Source of the DNA: a virus
Taxonomy: Duplodnaviria; Caudoviricetes
IMG/VR virus record: IMGVR_UViG_3300021399_000111
Coordinates: 32,001 to 96,000 of that record
Reading direction: 5' to 3' (one strand)
Length of the DNA: 64,000 bases
Below the pieces are notes generated by a model, which saw nothing but the letters and a program-made list of their open reading frames with translations, had not been told where the DNA came from and searched no databases. Positions 22,999-58,832 of this stretch are shown here, in pieces. A program made the translations under genes and the position numbers. Position 1 is the stretch's first letter. Each line of letters starts with the position of its first letter.

Positions 22999-23811
22999 TT
23001 AGCCAAGTAATGCAAGAACACCTGCATTAGCTTGATTAGACTGAGCCAACATAGCTTGTCCCGCCTGCGCAAGAATATTCGCATTTGAATACTTAACCAT
23101 TTCTGTTGCCATATCAGCATCACGAATCTGGCTTTCCGCAGAAGTAGTATTTTCAACAACATTATTAAGATTGTTGATAGTATGCTCAAGACGATTCTGG
23201 ACAGCACCAAGATCAGATCTTTGGCTACTAACAGTCTCTAAAGCAGTTTTAATAGAACTAATAGCTGCAGTAGCACCATCATAATCAGATACATCTAAAG
23301 AATCAACACTAAGAGTTCCAGCATCCATTGCCCCAATAGAAATCTCGATGTTTTGTCCGCCTTCAGCTCCGACCTGAAGTTTCTTACCAGTGAAGTTACC
23401 ATCTAACAAATTCTGCTCATTGAAAGTTGTTGTTGAAGCAACACGGCTAATTTCAGATGCAAGAGCATCGATTTCAGACTGAATGTACCCGCGATCAGTA
23501 CTCATATTAGTGTCATTTGCAGCTTGAGTGGCGAGTTCATTCATTCTCTGAAGCATATCATGTACTTCATTTAATGCACCTTCCGCAGTTTGAACAGCGG
23601 AAATTCCATCTTGGGCATTTCTTACCGCTTGAGTTAATCCTCTTACCTGTCTACGCATCTTTTCAGAAATAGCTAAACCAGCCGCATCATCAGCAGCACG
23701 GTTAATTCTATAACCAGAAGAGAGCTTTTCTGTTGACTTAGATAAAGTAGATTGAGTTAAGCCAAGCATTCTGTTAGAATTCATTGCGGTTAAATTGTGT
23801 TGAATAGTCAT
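22999..23811 (-). CDS. fliC: Flagellin (minimal D0/D1 type, 270 aa)
   Basis: EKLSSGYRINRAADDAAGLAISEKMR, QTAEGALNEVHDMLQRMNELA, RSDLGAVQNRLEH and ESQIRDADMATEM...QAGQAMLAQ. Confidence 0.97.
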   Translation of the reverse strand: MTIQHNLTAMNSNRMLGLTQSTLSKSTEKLSSGYRINRAADDAAGLAISEKMRRQVRGLTQAVRNAQDGISAVQTAEGALNEVHDMLQRMNELATQAANDTNMSTDRGYIQSEIDALASEISRVASTTTFNEQNLLDGNFTGKKLQVGAEGGQNIEISIGAMDAGTLSVDSLDVSDYDGATAAISSIKTALETVSSQRSDLGAVQNRLEHTINNLNNVVENTTSAESQIRDADMATEMVKYSNANILAQAGQAMLAQSNQANAGVLALLG

Positions 23812-23818
23812 AATTTTT

Positions 23819-23853
23819 TTCCTCCTTGAAAATAAAATACCACATCCTTGTGG
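23819..23853 (-). promoter_or_regulatory. Tandem CsrA-type binding sites in fliC leader
   Basis: Hairpin CCACAAGGATGTGG (23840-23853) and TTCAAGGAGGAA overlapping the SD (23819-23830), the same layout as the B. subtilis hag leader. Confidence 0.75.
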
Positions 23854-23899
23854 CAGTTAATATATTATAAAACTCTTATGAGTTTTATTTTCTATAATT

Positions 23900-23928
23900 A
23901 TTATAACAAAAATTTTATCTTTTGTCAA
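23900..23928 (-). promoter_or_regulatory. Sigma-A type promoter driving fliC
   Basis: TTGACA-17 bp-TATAAT with TG extension; no sigma-28 GCCGATA(T/A) box in the intergenic region. Confidence 0.8.
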
Positions 23929-23959
23929 TATTAAATAAATTTTATCTTTATTATATTAT

Positions 23960-24394
23960 TTAAATCTGTCCATATGGATCCCACTCTCTACAATTAAAAA
24001 ATTTTTGAAGCGCCCAACGCTCACTACATAGATTTAGTGGAGATTCATATACTATTAAAGCAATAGTATTAGCATTAAATTTATTACAGCAATGCTCAAA
24101 TGCCCATAAAGTTTTTTCTTTATCAACCAATGTTTTTAATAATTCTTCATATTCAATCATTGTTGGACAAAAAGGGGCTTTGCTTTTATCTTCACAAGGA
24201 CAAGTATGTTTTCCATAGCGTTGAACTATAAGCGGCTCATACCGAAGCCCGCATACTATTCCTCTCTTGTCTATATAATATTCTTTTCCTTCTGGCGGGC
24301 GGTACCAAACTGGATCACTAAGTGCAGTTGACACTGGAATAATATTAGGTGTAAAATTTCTAATTTGATAAAAATAACTTGTTACAATTTTCAT
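23960..24394 (-). CDS. DUF488-like protein
   Basis: N-terminal IVTSYF and C-terminal LIVYE...CSER pattern reminiscent of DUF488. Confidence 0.5.
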   Translation of the reverse strand: MKIVTSYFYQIRNFTPNIIPVSTALSDPVWYRPPEGKEYYIDKRGIVCGLRYEPLIVQRYGKHTCPCEDKSKAPFCPTMIEYEELLKTLVDKEKTLWAFEHCCNKFNANTIALIVYESPLNLCSERWALQKFFNCREWDPYGQI

Positions 24395-24513
24395 ATTCTT
24401 TAATCGCTTTTTTCAAAACTTCTTCTGATATTATTTGATAATTTCTTTTATTAAACCAATAATATCCAGATTTATCTTCAACTGGCTCAAAAAGATTTTT
24501 TATTATTAATACA

Positions 24514-24723
24514 TTATTCATCTATAGCTGCCTCAATCTCATAGCCATCTGCACAACCTATATCATCTATCTCATCAAATTCTGTAAAATGATATAACTT
24601 ATATCCAACTTTGACTACATCAAAAACTTTACCAAAATCTTCAGCCCATTTAGAACCCGAATAAAATATTTTTAATCTAGTTCCATCAGGTAGATTTCTA
24701 ACTTGATCTGCTGTTAATCTCAT
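24514..24723 (-). CDS. Hypothetical protein
   Basis: Small ORF in a tightly packed cluster; GGAGG SD. Confidence 0.55.
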   Translation of the reverse strand: MRLTADQVRNLPDGTRLKIFYSGSKWAEDFGKVFDVVKVGYKLYHFTEFDEIDDIGCADGYEIEAAIDE

Positions 24724-56489: not shown

Positions 56490-56511
56490 TATTAATATCT
56501 TCCTCCATTGA

Positions 56512-57285
56512 TTAATCAAAATATATTTCTTCAAAAGTGTCTAAGTCAAGAAGAGCGATACGATTAGATACAGCGGTACACATGTCTATACAAAACTTAT
56601 GTCCATCACAGTAACGAATAATTGTAGGTTTAGGATATGATGTATCATCTCCATATAACCAATTATGCGCTTTTTTTATATCTTCTTTTGTTTTAGGCGG
56701 TTGACCTTTATATCCGAATTCATATTCCAGAAATTGAACTGGAGTATGCCCATGAACTAAATAAATAGTATTAGGGTCTTCTTTTGTGAAAAAATCATCC
56801 TCTACCCAATTATCATAGAAATGACTTCTATCCCAAAGGGGGTCATGGGGACGGTGTGAAGCTATTAAAGAATGCCCGGCGTGTTCCAAAATTACAGTAT
56901 GAGATCCTTTAACAGAATAATATACTAATTGTTTAGGTAATTTAGAAATAATATTAATATAATGATCTTGAATAAATCTAGGGAATTTAAGTAATTGATT
57001 TACTGTTAAATTCTCACTATCATCAAAAATTTCCCAGCGGTTAGGCTTGCGTCTATGGTTTATTTCTTCCACCATCATATCTTCGTGATTACCACAAAGA
57101 AAGTGTACTCTAGGATCATCTATTAATACATTAAATAATTCTAAGCCATGCGGGCCTCGATCAACTGCATCACCAATAAAATAAAGTGTATCATCAGGCT
57201 GCAACCAATTTAAAACTTTTTTGCCTAATTCAAGTTGAGCATGCCAATCTGAACTTGCAAAAACTCTTCCCATAAAAAACACCAC
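56512..57285 (-). CDS. Metallophosphoesterase (phage Ser/Thr phosphatase-like)
   Basis: SDWH, GDAVDRG, GNHE, HAG and VHGHTP motifs. Confidence 0.9.
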   Translation of the reverse strand: MVFFMGRVFASSDWHAQLELGKKVLNWLQPDDTLYFIGDAVDRGPHGLELFNVLIDDPRVHFLCGNHEDMMVEEINHRRKPNRWEIFDDSENLTVNQLLKFPRFIQDHYINIISKLPKQLVYYSVKGSHTVILEHAGHSLIASHRPHDPLWDRSHFYDNWVEDDFFTKEDPNTIYLVHGHTPVQFLEYEFGYKGQPPKTKEDIKKAHNWLYGDDTSYPKPTIIRYCDGHKFCIDMCTAVSNRIALLDLDTFEEIYFD

Positions 57286-57335
57286 TTCCTTTCTTTTATA
57301 ATTAATTATATCATAATTTTTTTAAGATTTCAAAT

Positions 57336-57364
57336 TTGCGTTTTTTAAAAAATTATGATATAAT
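57336..57364 (+). promoter_or_regulatory. Sigma-A type promoter for fliD, divergent from promoter 57305-57333
   Basis: TTGCGT-17 bp-TATAAT with TG extension. Confidence 0.65.
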
Positions 57365-57413
57365 AAAATTAGACAGAAATGTATAATTTTTTTAGAGAGA
57401 AAATTATATATTA

Positions 57414-57454
57414 TGAGAAGAAGGATTTTCTCAATATTTTACAAGGAGGTAAAA
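57414..57454 (+). promoter_or_regulatory. Tandem CsrA-type GGA hairpins in fliD leader
   Basis: TGAGAAGAAGGATTTTCTCA and TTTTACAAGGAGGTAAAA (overlapping the SD), both with AAGGA at the hairpin apex. Confidence 0.65.
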
Positions 57455-57458
57455 AAGT

Positions 57459-58832
57459 ATGGGTATGAAATTAACAGGACTTGTTTCTGGAATGGATACT
57501 GATGCAGTTATTAAACAAATGACATTAGCATACACAGCAAAAAAAGATAAAGTCTGGAAAGCTAAAGAAACTTTAACTTATAAACAAGATGCTTGGAAAA
57601 ATCTTAATAAAGAAGTTTATGATATGTTTACAAAACTTTCTAAACTAAGATTAACTTCTACTTATCAAAGAAGTGAAGCCTCTTCATCAAATGAAAATAT
57701 TGTAACGGTTGCGGGAGATAAAATTCAAGGGCAGCATGATGTAACAGTGAAACAAATTGCTACTCAAACTTATCTTACTGGAAATATTGTTAATCAAAGT
57801 CAACCTATTAATGTTTCTGGTAATTTGACTGTTACAATAGGCGGGAAAGAAAAAGAATTAAATATTACTCCAGATATGTCAATGGAACAAGTTGCTAGAA
57901 AATTAACCGAAGCGGGAATTATTGCTAATTTTGATGAAAATAATGCAAGATTATTTTTAGCGTCAAAAACAACAGGAGCAAGTAGTGATTTTAATATAAG
58001 CGGAGATGCAAGCTTACTAGATGCCATAGGGCTAGGGTCTTCCGCAATAAAACAAGTTGGTAAAGATTCTATTATTAATGTAAATGGAGTGGATTTTGTA
58101 TCTTCTTCAAATAAATTTAATATTAATAATATGACAATTACCGCAAAATCATTAGGTTCTGCTACTGTTGGAATGAAAACAGATGAACATATTTTTGATA
58201 CTGTTAAATCTTTTATTAAAGATTATAATGCTTTAATTAAAAAAATTGATAGTTCTTATAATAACACTGCCGCAAAGGGATTATCTCCATTAACCGATGA
58301 AGAAAAAGATGCTTTAACAGATAAACAAATTGAAGAATGGGAAAGTAAATTAAAAGAGAGTGCTTTAAGCAAAGATGAAACTTTATCCTCTTTAAGTTCT
58401 TTGTTAAAAACTACAATGAGTTCTATTTCTGTTGATGGAATTAATTTAACTTCTATGGGTATTACTCTTGGAGGATATTTCACAACAGAGAAAGATGAAA
58501 GAGGCGTTTATAATATTGATGAAGATAAACTCCAAAAAATAATTGCAGAGAACCCTGATAAAGTAATAAATTTTGTTACTAAACTTGCGGGAACCTTATA
58601 TGATAAATTAAATACAAAGATGAAATCATCTTCTTTAAATAGCATTTATAGTATCTATAATGATAAGCAAATTAAAAATAATCTTGCAAATTATGATAAG
58701 AAAATTGCTGAATGGGAAGATAAGATTGTAAAAATGGAAGATAAGTGGTATAAGCAATTTGCAAGAATGGAAAGCGTATTAAGTAAAACGCAGAGCCAAG
58801 CAAATTATTTATCAAATTTCTTTGGAATATAA
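57459..58832 (+). CDS. fliD: Flagellar filament cap protein
   Basis: N-terminal LTGLVSGMDTDAVIKQM, VKQIAT, SNKFNINNMTI, FIKDYNALI, LTDEEK; C-terminal WYKQFARMESVLSKTQSQANYL. Confidence 0.93.
   Translation: MGMKLTGLVSGMDTDAVIKQMTLAYTAKKDKVWKAKETLTYKQDAWKNLNKEVYDMFTKLSKLRLTSTYQRSEASSSNENIVTVAGDKIQGQHDVTVKQIATQTYLTGNIVNQSQPINVSGNLTVTIGGKEKELNITPDMSMEQVARKLTEAGIIANFDENNARLFLASKTTGASSDFNISGDASLLDAIGLGSSAIKQVGKDSIINVNGVDFVSSSNKFNINNMTITAKSLGSATVGMKTDEHIFDTVKSFIKDYNALIKKIDSSYNNTAAKGLSPLTDEEKDALTDKQIEEWESKLKESALSKDETLSSLSSLLKTTMSSISVDGINLTSMGITLGGYFTTEKDERGVYNIDEDKLQKIIAENPDKVINFVTKLAGTLYDKLNTKMKSSSLNSIYSIYNDKQIKNNLANYDKKIAEWEDKIVKMEDKWYKQFARMESVLSKTQSQANYLSNFFGI

What the first reader, a model, noticed from the sequence alone, without database searches (positions are those of the whole stretch)
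22999..58832. Phage encodes both a flagellin (FliC) and a filament cap (FliD): a possible flagellum-remodelling system
Seen: an intact 270-aa flagellin at 22999-23811 (-) and an intact 457-aa FliD at 57459-58832 (+). They are 34 kb apart on opposite strands, each flanked by phage genes, with no other flagellar gene in the window. Known: FliC and FliD are the two distal, exposed filament components; FliD chaperones polymerisation of flagellin at the tip; filaments are receptors for flagellotropic phages and TLR5 ligands. Inference: separate insertion of precisely this pair suggests selection to build a phage-specified filament using the host export apparatus. Possible roles are superinfection exclusion, altered motility or immune visibility, or poisoning of the host filament.
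Basis: partly seen in the sequence, partly recalled or inferred. Interest (0 to 1): 0.92.

Follow-up and report, generated by a model that had tools for sequence, protein, structure and literature searches.

The report
Phage-encoded flagellin and filament cap pair
A complete 142-kb phage of rumen Lachnospiraceae carries intact, strongly conserved genes for flagellin and the flagellar cap FliD; the pair recurs in related phages, so these phages probably make the host build or regrow its filament from phage-supplied parts during infection.

Summary
The window lies in a complete 141,935-bp phage genome with 127-bp terminal repeats. It encodes an intact 270-aa flagellin and an intact 457-aa FliD, and I found no other flagellar gene (FliS, FliW, CsrA, FlaG, rod/hook families) and no integrase, resolvase or TnpB/TldR.

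Each gene is its own unit, with a sigma-A-type promoter and a terminator, in the replication arm. Chimeric assembly and relaxed selection are both refuted:
- The same junctions recur in independent assemblies.
- dN/dS against a diverged sister phage is 0.013 (fliC) and 0.16 (fliD). DnaE gives 0.13.

The pair recurs in related phages, but the two genes have different histories. Phage FliDs form one clade (support 100), at most 43% identical to 401 Lachnospiraceae genomes searched. Phage flagellins are 78-83% identical to host flagellins, and their monophyly is rejected (AU p 0.003).

Phage fliC genes lack the sigma-D promoter (0/10 versus 70/87 bacterial) but keep the CsrA-type leader hairpin.

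Best reading (0.55): a filament-regrowth or re-surfacing kit that uses the host export apparatus. Function is untested. The closest known system is the Enterobacter FRphi fliC_P-tldR prophage, so this is a new variant. The scan noted the same pair in another genome (e1-5747857).

The parts
22999..23811 (-). fliC: 270-aa flagellin with D0/D1 only
   Evidence: Intact ORF. Pfam Flagellin_N and Flagellin_C cover their full profiles. PDB 9hpz E 8e-101. dN/dS 0.013 against the sister phage.
23900..23928 (-). fliC promoter: TTGACA-17-TATAAT with a TG extension (sigma-A type)
   Evidence: 12/12 consensus match. It belongs to the same class as many promoters in this genome. No sigma-D -10 box lies upstream.
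23821..23855 (-). fliC leader: hairpin CCACA-AGGA-TGTGG (23838-23855), then AAGGAGG over the Shine-Dalgarno (23821-23827). This is the CsrA two-site arrangement.
   Evidence: Read directly. A GGA-loop hairpin lies 43-55 nt upstream of the ATG in the phage fliC genes (scored 10/10; for L020 by eye) and in 68/87 bacterial fliC genes. The tool also flags it as terminator-like because of the U-run that follows.
22960..22981 (-). fliC terminator: 9-bp G+C-rich stem followed by a T-run
   Evidence: The sequence is shown.
57336..57364 (+). fliD promoter: TTGCGT-17-TATAAT with extended -10 TGATATAAT. It diverges from the promoter of the neighbouring phosphoesterase gene (57305-57333, minus strand).
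   Evidence: The same TGnTATAAT class precedes DnaE, the helicase and the RNA ligase.
57459..58832 (+). fliD: 457-aa filament cap, the only long plus-strand gene in the minus-strand replication arm
   Evidence: Intact ORF. Pfam FliD_N and FliD_C. AF2 model and Foldseek matches to FliD caps. The clade profile aligns end to end with Salmonella FliD. dN/dS 0.16.
58837..58859 (.). Bidirectional terminator hairpin between the convergent fliD and DUF2828 genes
23960..24394 (-). p144: conserved phage gene that marks the upstream edge of the fliC insertion site
   Evidence: In relatives without fliC, p144 sits 35-350 nt from DnaE (L027, L029, L030, L065, L069). fliC sits between the two in the window, L170 and L002.
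18884..22888 (-). DnaE (Pol III alpha): downstream edge of the fliC insertion site and marker of the phage family
   Evidence: PHROG DNA polymerase 3e-197. It was used to retrieve 56 related viral contigs.

Best explanation
The two genes form a phage-carried kit for growing or regrowing the host's flagellar filament. During infection the phage transcribes fliC and fliD from its own sigma-A-type promoters. This bypasses the host's sigma-D/FlgM checkpoint and any shut-off of host late flagellar genes.

The proteins would then be handled by host FliS and FliT and exported through the host's existing flagellar type III apparatus. FliD would form a new cap on a hook junction or on a broken filament stub, and phage flagellin would polymerise under it. 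Translation of the phage flagellin stays gated by the host CsrA-FliW switch through the retained leader.

The outcome would be a filament that is maintained or extended in the infected cell and is made partly or wholly of phage flagellin. That flagellin has a host-like core and a different exposed patch (residues about 150-200).

Likely payoffs are continued motility and chemotaxis of the infected cell, analogous to cyanophage psbA, or a changed filament surface that no longer binds flagellum-dependent phages, or both.

Shown:
- Both genes are intact.
- Each is an autonomous expression unit.
- Purifying selection acts on both.
- The pair recurs in related phages.
- FliD has a single phage clade, while flagellin was acquired from hosts several times.
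- The sigma-D promoter is lost and the CsrA leader is kept.

Inferred: expression timing, export, incorporation into the filament, and the benefit to the phage.
For: 1. Both proteins are complete and canonical.

2. Purifying selection against a sister phage with substantial synonymous divergence: fliC dN 0.008, dS 0.64, ratio 0.013; fliD ratio 0.16; DnaE and NrdD 0.13; flanking genes 0.2-0.3.

3. fliC and fliD are exactly the two parts needed to regrow a filament on an existing hook-basal body (established flagellar biology). FliS, FliW, CsrA, FlaG and Flg_bbr_C were not found in the complete genome.

4. The pair recurs together. It is found in the sister phage (L170/L006), G001, G002, L012, on the L010 contig, and as an adjacent fliC-fliD tandem in L007. 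None of the 23 DnaE-retrieved records at least 70% complete has either gene.

5. FliD forms a single clade (SH-aLRT 100). All nine members with known context are on phage-like contigs. Composition has shifted to that of the phage: GC3 0.15 against a bacterial mean of 0.45. Identity to FliD in 401 Lachnospiraceae genomes is at most 43%.

6. Flagellin is host-like: 82% identical to a flagellin inside a bacterial FlaG-FliD-FliS-FlgN locus and 78% to rumen Lachnospiraceae genomes. It is polyphyletic among host flagellins (AU test dlnL 117, p 0.003). This fits a need to match host machinery.

7. Differences from host flagellins cluster at residues 149-196: 27 of 47 against P0006. The D0/D1 helices are conserved.

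8. A sigma-D -10 box is present upstream of 70/87 bacterial fliC genes and 0/10 phage fliC genes. The GGA hairpin plus Shine-Dalgarno site is kept in the phage copies. Both genes carry the genome's common TGnTATAAT promoter class and lie in the replication arm, not the virion arm.
Against: - There is no expression, export or incorporation data.
- Most related phages lack both genes, so the function is accessory.
- Phage FliD is only 34-43% identical to any bacterial FliD, so its compatibility with a host filament is untested.
- No phage FliS or FliT was found, so the kit depends on free host chaperones.
- The benefit of filament growth within a single lytic cycle is unproven, and the latent period is unknown.
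- The host is known only to family level and only by similarity.
- A virulent lifestyle is inferred only from the lack of integrase and resolvase hits.
Confidence: 0.55

Rival explanations
1. Regulatory decoy. The proteins act in the cytoplasm rather than in the filament. Excess phage flagellin titrates host FliW and FliS, which frees CsrA to repress host flagellin and other CsrA targets. Excess FliD titrates its chaperone FliT. The net effect is a reprogrammed host, not a new filament.
For: The CsrA-type leader is kept in the phage fliC genes. No phage FliW, FliS or CsrA was found. Transcription is uncoupled from the sigma-D checkpoint. The Hag-FliW-CsrA partner switch is established in Bacillus subtilis.
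Against: A decoy would need only the chaperone-binding segments. Yet the whole polymerisation core of the flagellin is under extreme constraint (ratio 0.013), and FliD keeps all its domains, D0 to D3. The phage fliC leader would itself be repressed by any CsrA that was freed. The role of FliT in Firmicutes regulation is not established.
Confidence: 0.12
2. Filament poison. The phage cap or flagellin is incompatible with host parts. It blocks or destabilises filament growth, which immobilises the infected cell or makes it shed flagellin monomers.
For: Phage FliD is distant from every bacterial FliD (34-43% identity) and is shorter than the 494-855 aa host caps. A distant relative, G004, carries a 308-aa FliD without the head domains.
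Against: Poisoning would need only one protein. Here a host-like flagellin with a conserved D0/D1 core has been acquired several times, which points to compatibility rather than interference. At 457 aa the protein is the size of working Salmonella and E. coli caps and aligns with them end to end.
Confidence: 0.1
3. Virion or extracellular structural use. Flagellin and FliD are parts of the phage particle, for example a fibre, or of another phage-made structure.
For: Some Foldseek matches below the FliD hits are phage baseplate and sheath proteins, with E 1e-3 to 1e-2. The phage has an unusually long tape measure protein (2960 aa).
Against: Both genes lie in the replication and host-takeover arm, not the structural arm. 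Flagellin normally polymerises only after export, under a cap. The flagellin follows host alleles rather than the phage lineage. Most relatives lack both genes.
Confidence: 0.04
4. Passenger DNA or assembly artefact. The genes are host fragments picked up by chance or misassembled, with no function for the phage.
For: Several 'phage' database hits to flagellin are short, unannotated contigs that look like bacterial contamination.
Against: The genome is complete with terminal repeats. The junctions are conserved in independent assemblies. Purifying selection is strong. The promoters are phage-type. GC3 has shifted to the phage value.
Confidence: 0.02

Closest known systems
Flagellin-remodelling prophage FRphi and other fliC_P-tldR prophages of Enterobacter (Wiegand et al., bioRxiv 10.1101/2023.11.30.569447; Walker et al., Nat Microbiol 2026, PMC13418256)
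   Same: Both are phages that carry their own flagellin, with a conserved D0/D1 core and a divergent exposed region, assembled by host machinery. In FRphi the flagellin is shown experimentally to replace the host flagellin and to change motility and immune recognition.
   Different: - FRphi is temperate. No integrase or resolvase was found here.
- FRphi silences host fliC with the RNA-guided repressor TldR. No TnpB/TldR was found here.
- fliC_P uses the host sigma-28 promoter. Here the sigma-D box is absent and a sigma-A-type promoter is used.
- FRphi has no phage FliD: the word does not occur in the paper's text.
- The hosts differ: Gram-negative Enterobacter against Gram-positive rumen Lachnospiraceae.
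Bacterial late flagellar genes of Lachnospiraceae and Bacillus: FlaG-FliD-FliS-FlgN plus fliC, sigma-D dependent, with Hag-FliW-CsrA translational control
   Same: The protein families are the same and are full length. The leader architecture is the same, with a GGA hairpin plus a Shine-Dalgarno site.
   Different: Only two of the genes are present, and they lie 34 kb apart on opposite strands. The sigma-D promoter is replaced. FliD is a separate clade, compact at about 457 aa against 494-855 aa, and AT-rich.
Host-derived auxiliary genes for high-turnover parts, such as cyanophage psbA (my own knowledge); viral motA/motB reported as motility auxiliary genes (Zhong et al. 2021, PMC8290583)
   Same: Phage copies of host structural parts are kept under selection, and for psbA are repeatedly exchanged with hosts. 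Motility genes have been reported on viral contigs.
   Different: This is an analogy of logic only. No filament protein or cap was described there, and no function has been shown here.
PHROGs v4 phage protein families
   Same: The flagellin matches phrog_16088, a family of unknown function, at 2e-64. Flagellin-like proteins therefore already exist in phage collections.
   Different: FliD matches no PHROG family at E 1e-3. Searches of the phage record collection returned only short, unannotated contigs.

Membership tests
Flagellin (FliC/Hag) | N-terminal and C-terminal helical regions (D0/D1), full length | tested here: met
   Flagellin_N covers 1-139/139 at 5e-46 and Flagellin_C covers 2-86/86 at 9e-26. 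The protein is colinear over residues 1-269 with the solved 270-aa filament flagellin 9hpz.
Flagellin (FliC/Hag) | Export through the flagellar type III system and polymerisation into a filament | not testable with these tools
   Inferred only, from the conserved termini and a dN/dS of 0.013.
FliD (HAP2 filament cap) | FliD_N and FliD_C regions with terminal coiled coils | tested here: met
   FliD_N 3e-17 (1-96/97) and FliD_C 9e-29 (1-235/236). The clade profile aligns residues 7-455 with Salmonella FliD residues 8-461.
FliD (HAP2 filament cap) | D1-D2-D3 fold of solved caps | tested here: met
   The AF2 model has pLDDT 87. Foldseek matches 6sih and 9gnz at E about 1e-20. The D2-D3 crystal structures align with target-normalised TM-scores of 0.67-0.72.
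FliD (HAP2 filament cap) | Oligomeric cap that promotes flagellin polymerisation | not tested
   A pentamer exceeds the size limit of the complex predictor. No experiment was possible.
FRphi-type flagellin-remodelling prophage (fliC_P-tldR) | RNA-guided repressor TldR (TnpB-derived) next to fliC | tested here: not met
   Only one sub-threshold zinc-ribbon hit (13 bits, E 0.012), elsewhere in the genome.
FRphi-type flagellin-remodelling prophage (fliC_P-tldR) | Temperate phage with integration functions | tested here: not met
   No Phage_integrase or Resolvase match. The genome ends in direct terminal repeats.
FRphi-type flagellin-remodelling prophage (fliC_P-tldR) | Phage flagellin driven by the host sigma-28 (FliA/SigD) promoter | tested here: not met
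   0/10 phage fliC upstream regions carry the sigma-D -10 core, against 70/87 bacterial ones. The window has a 12/12 sigma-A consensus promoter.
FRphi-type flagellin-remodelling prophage (fliC_P-tldR) | Conserved D0/D1 with a divergent exposed region relative to host flagellin | tested here: met
   27 of the 47 differences from the nearest bacterial-context flagellin fall in residues 149-196.
Moron / auxiliary gene cassette | Own promoter and terminator, host-derived, absent from close relatives at the same site | tested here: met
   Promoters and terminators were found for both genes. The empty p144|DnaE site is seen in relatives. The nearest homologues are bacterial.

The most novel reading that the evidence does not exclude
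A lineage of large, apparently virulent phages of motile Lachnospiraceae maintains a portable filament-regrowth module. It consists of a phage-specific, compact, generalist cap protein kept within phages since a single origin, and a flagellin that has been replaced several times by host-like alleles. The module is rewired to phage promoters but is still gated by host CsrA-FliW. It would let the phage keep its infected cell swimming or re-surface the cell's flagella. I found no earlier report of a phage-encoded FliD clade or of a flagellar remodelling system in a non-temperate phage.
Probability: 0.45. Interest if true: 0.82.

Novelty: new variant of a known kind. Interest (0 to 1): 0.72.

Why it matters
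Phage control of the flagellum has so far been shown only for temperate Enterobacter phages, which swap flagellin by means of an RNA-guided repressor.

This case would extend the idea in four ways:
- to apparently virulent phages;
- to Gram-positive gut and rumen anaerobes;
- to the cap protein;
- to a different regulatory solution, in which the promoter is replaced and the CsrA leader is retained.

The contrast between a single phage FliD clade and several independently acquired host-like flagellins gives a testable model of which part must match the host.

If the module keeps infected cells motile or hides their filaments, it bears on phage dispersal, on competition among flagellum-dependent phages, and on how flagellin genes found in viromes should be read.

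Tried and rejected
- **RNA and read evidence.** There is therefore no expression data and no read-level junction check.
- **Phage record collection.** Hits to both proteins were short, unannotated contigs that look like bacterial DNA. They were not informative.
- **Single-protein scan of viral contigs with FliD.** It found nothing. The alignment-based scan worked.
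- **Organism names for the nearest flagellins.** The listing of cluster members returned no organism names.
- **First FliD tree.** The run with 112 rows and a mixture model did not finish. I replaced it with 72 rows under LG+G4.
- **Clean empty site for fliD.** In G005 the DUF2828 and phosphoesterase genes are separated by 2.8 kb of other sequence, and G008 and G028 have different neighbours. The slot is a variable region, not a clean insertion site.
- **Second, late-class promoter upstream of fliD.** Earlier scan notes suggested one. K-mer sharing with other upstream regions gave only AT-rich low-complexity matches, so this is not confirmed.
- **FliS hit.** The only match, at 19.8 bits, lies inside fliD's own C-terminal coiled coil. 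I rejected it.
- **Complex prediction.** Not run. A FliD pentamer exceeds the size limit, and a filament pair is a poor use of that tool.
- **Immune (TLR5) role.** I considered it and set it aside, because this is an apparently virulent phage from rumen and digester samples.

Full report
**The observation**

The 270-aa protein matches Pfam Flagellin_N (5e-46) and Flagellin_C (9e-26) over their whole profiles. It is colinear with a solved 270-aa filament flagellin, 9hpz, at E 8e-101.

The 457-aa protein matches FliD_N and FliD_C over their whole profiles. A profile of its clade aligns residues 7-455 with residues 8-461 of Salmonella FliD. An AlphaFold2 model (pLDDT 87) has full-length FliD caps as its top Foldseek matches (6sih, 9gnz; E about 1e-20).

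**The genome**

The window is bases 32001-96000 of a 141,935-bp IMG/VR virus record. The record has a 127-bp direct terminal repeat, a CheckV completeness of 100% and 33% G+C.

- The plus-strand arm (about 5.5-46.6 kb of the genome) holds a sigma-factor-like gene, terminase, portal, virion proteins, a 2960-aa tape measure and tail fibres.
- The minus-strand arm holds NrdD, DnaE, helicases, RecJ, DnaB, gyrase A and B, NAD ligase, PhoH, RNA ligase and an Amidase_2+SH3 endolysin. That endolysin type suggests a Gram-positive host.

Both flagellar genes lie in the minus-strand arm. fliD is the only long plus-strand gene there.

In the whole genome I found no FliS, FliW, CsrA, FlaG or Flg_bbr_C family member. 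The one FliS hit, at 19.8 bits, lies inside fliD itself. I also found no tyrosine integrase, serine recombinase or TnpB/TldR. The phage is therefore probably virulent and must rely on host flagellar machinery.

**Each gene is an autonomous unit**

fliC has four signals:
- a perfect TTGACA-17-TATAAT promoter with a TG extension at 23928-23900;
- a leader hairpin CCACA-AGGA-TGTGG;
- AAGGAGG over the Shine-Dalgarno site;
- a G+C-rich hairpin terminator at 22981-22960.

fliD has an extended -10 promoter (TGATATAAT, ending at 57364) and shares a bidirectional terminator (58837-58859) with the convergent DUF2828 gene. The same TTGAyw-N-TGnTATAAT promoter class precedes DnaE, the helicase, the RNA ligase and many other genes.

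**Artefact and decay are excluded**

The fliC-DnaE junction and the fliD junctions recur in independent assemblies from other samples:
- a 145-kb sister phage (L170, L006) and a second contig from another sample (L005);
- an IMG/VR fragment (L002);
- L010/L011, L012, G001 and G002.

The sister phage is well diverged, with flanking proteins 53-92% identical. Even so, its flagellin is 98.5% identical (dN 0.008, dS 0.64, dN/dS 0.013). Its FliD is 86% identical (dN/dS 0.16). For comparison, DnaE and NrdD give 0.13 and the immediate flanking genes give 0.2-0.3.

Third-position G+C is 0.15 for fliD and 0.25 for fliC. The phage genes average 0.20. Bacterial homologues average 0.45 (FliD) and 0.40 (flagellin). 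Both genes are therefore long-term, selected residents.

**The pair recurs, with two different histories**

A graded series of FliDs of about 457 aa, 84% down to 44% identical, exists in metagenomes. Every member whose context I could read lies on a contig that shares this phage's genes or DnaE fragments.

The fliD slot, on the opposite strand between the NinI-like phosphoesterase and DUF2828, is the same in the window, the sister phage, L010/L011, one contig known only from its gene table, and G001. G002 and L012 keep the phosphoesterase side only. Elsewhere:
- fliD sits directly upstream of DnaE (L013/L014);
- fliD forms a fliC-fliD tandem between the pieces of a homing-endonuclease-split DnaE in a 122-kb bioreactor contig (L007).

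In a 72-sequence tree the 457-aa FliDs form one clade with SH-aLRT support of 100, apart from the 494-855-aa bacterial Lachnospiraceae caps. One other viral contig, G003, carries a separately derived 488-aa FliD. In 401 Lachnospiraceae genomes the best full-length identity is 43%. L007 shares few other genes with the window, so the clade has probably also moved between phages.

Flagellin behaves differently. Its nearest relatives are bacterial:
- 82% identity to a flagellin inside a FlaG-FliD(520 aa)-FliS-FlgN locus. The FliD of that locus is only 34% identical to the phage FliD.
- 78% identity to rumen Lachnospiraceae genomes.

Phage flagellins are scattered among host flagellins, and an AU test rejects their monophyly (dlnL 117, p 0.003).

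The position of fliC also varies. It lies between p144 and DnaE in the window, the sister phage and L002, and again next to a p144 homologue in G004. It lies beside the RNA ligase, 3-7 kb from fliD, in G001, G002 and L012. Relatives without fliC have p144 within 35-350 nt of DnaE, which is the empty site.

Of 49 related viral records, the three retrieved through FliD that are at least 70% complete all carry flagellin. None of the 23 DnaE-retrieved records at least 70% complete has either gene. Three flagellin-retrieved records carry flagellin alone: two are fragments (7% and 23% complete), and the third, G046, shares no other gene with the window and has the flagellin at its contig end.

**Regulatory rewiring**

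- A sigma-D -10 core occurs upstream of 70 of 87 bacterial fliC genes and 0 of 10 phage fliC genes.
- Extended -10 sigma-A-type promoters occur upstream of 3 of 10 phage fliC genes and 0 of 87 bacterial ones.
- The GGA-loop hairpin lies 43-55 nt upstream of the ATG in the phage fliC genes (scored 10/10; for L020 the script matched another stem and I read the GGA hairpin by eye) and in 68 of 87 bacterial ones.

This two-site arrangement is the one through which CsrA, antagonised by FliW, controls flagellin translation in Bacillus subtilis (established knowledge). The phage copies have therefore left the sigma-D/FlgM transcriptional checkpoint but kept the secretion-coupled translational gate.

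**Where the flagellin differs**

Of the 47 differences from the nearest bacterial-context flagellin, 27 fall in residues 149-196, the exposed tip of a D0/D1-only flagellin. The helices that build the filament core are conserved.

**Interpretation**

Flagellin and FliD are the two parts needed to regrow a filament on an existing hook-basal body. The phage supplies both from its own promoters and lacks everything else. I therefore favour a filament-regrowth or re-surfacing kit that uses the host export apparatus (0.55).

The benefit could be sustained motility of the infected cell, or loss of a filament receptor for competing or progeny phages. I cannot separate these two.

Rivals:
- a cytoplasmic decoy for FliW, FliS or FliT (0.12);
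- a filament poison (0.10);
- a virion component (0.04);
- passenger DNA or an artefact (0.02).

The whole-protein constraint, the complete domain set, the host-like flagellin and the genomic position argue against each of these in turn. No expression, export or phenotype data exist.

**Comparison with what is known**

The closest system is the Enterobacter FRphi fliC_P-tldR prophage. It is a temperate phage whose flagellin replaces the host's, with measured effects on motility and immune recognition. The present case differs in five ways:
- it is not temperate by the tests I ran;
- it has no TldR;
- it does not use the sigma-28 promoter;
- it carries FliD, which the FRphi paper never mentions;
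- it infects a different bacterial phylum.

PHROGs v4 has a flagellin-like family of unknown function but no FliD family. My paper searches found no report of a phage FliD. I class this as a new variant of a known kind.

The scan's earlier notes had flagged the same pair in another genome (e1-5747857) and, in this genome, the promoter/CsrA rewiring (e1-5779061). I tested the rewiring claim here and it holds.

Noticed in passing
window 61107-61457 (-), with tRNAs at 60616-60688, 61609-61680, 61775-61851 and 62131-62203 (-): A phage-encoded tmRNA (tag peptide DKKIVNFPRRLAQAAA) sits in a cluster of four tRNA genes (Thr, Gln, Pro, Trp), just downstream of the fliD/DUF2828 region.
   Followed up: no
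window 58867-60318 (-): The gene convergent with fliD is a DUF2828 + DUF7788 protein. Earlier scan notes call it Ro60/TROVE-like and link it to Y-RNA-like elements nearby. It is conserved next to fliD in several related phages.
   Followed up: partly
window 54612-54836 (-): A 74-aa HPr-like phosphocarrier protein (NCBIfam 4.5e-9, below cut-off; Pfam PTS-HPr on the sister's copy). It occupies the slot where G001, G002 and L012 carry their flagellin.
   Followed up: no
window 23838-23855 (-): The CsrA-type leader hairpin of fliC is followed by a U-run and is also scored as terminator-like. It could act as an attenuator as well as a CsrA site.
   Followed up: no
window 62287-63999 (-), continuing beyond the window: Large BspA-type LRR/DUF285 proteins (786 and 742 aa) and a family-2 glycosyltransferase lie in the replication arm, a few kb from fliD. 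They may be surface or host-modifying proteins.
   Followed up: no
L007 4438-14739: In a 122-kb bioreactor phage contig, DnaE is split into at least four pieces with LAGLIDADG endonuclease genes between them. RecX and a fliC-fliD tandem (96 nt apart) lie between two of the pieces on the opposite strand.
   Followed up: partly
L080 1495-2694 and L089 1210-2136 (IMG/VR record G004, 147 kb): A more distant phage has a longer flagellin interrupted by one in-frame TAG, again next to a p144 homologue. It also has a 308-aa FliD with both termini but no head domains. This could be decay, TAG recoding or a minimal cap.
   Followed up: partly
L020 and L021, immediately upstream of fliC: In G001 and G002 the flagellin gene follows what looks like the 3' end of a tRNA gene (GGTTCGAATCC-type T-arm). 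This suggests that a tRNA-adjacent site is a second insertion slot.
   Followed up: no
genome 22187-31069 (+), upstream of the window (L016 4187-13069): The tape measure protein is 2960 aa long, which implies an exceptionally long tail, roughly 0.4 micrometre by the usual 0.15 nm per residue rule.
   Followed up: no
whole genome: There are 86 TGnTATAAT extended -10 motifs. Many have a TTGAyw -35 element and lie within 150 nt upstream of a gene, including structural genes. The phage therefore seems to rely heavily on host sigma-A despite encoding a sigma-factor-like protein.
   Followed up: partly
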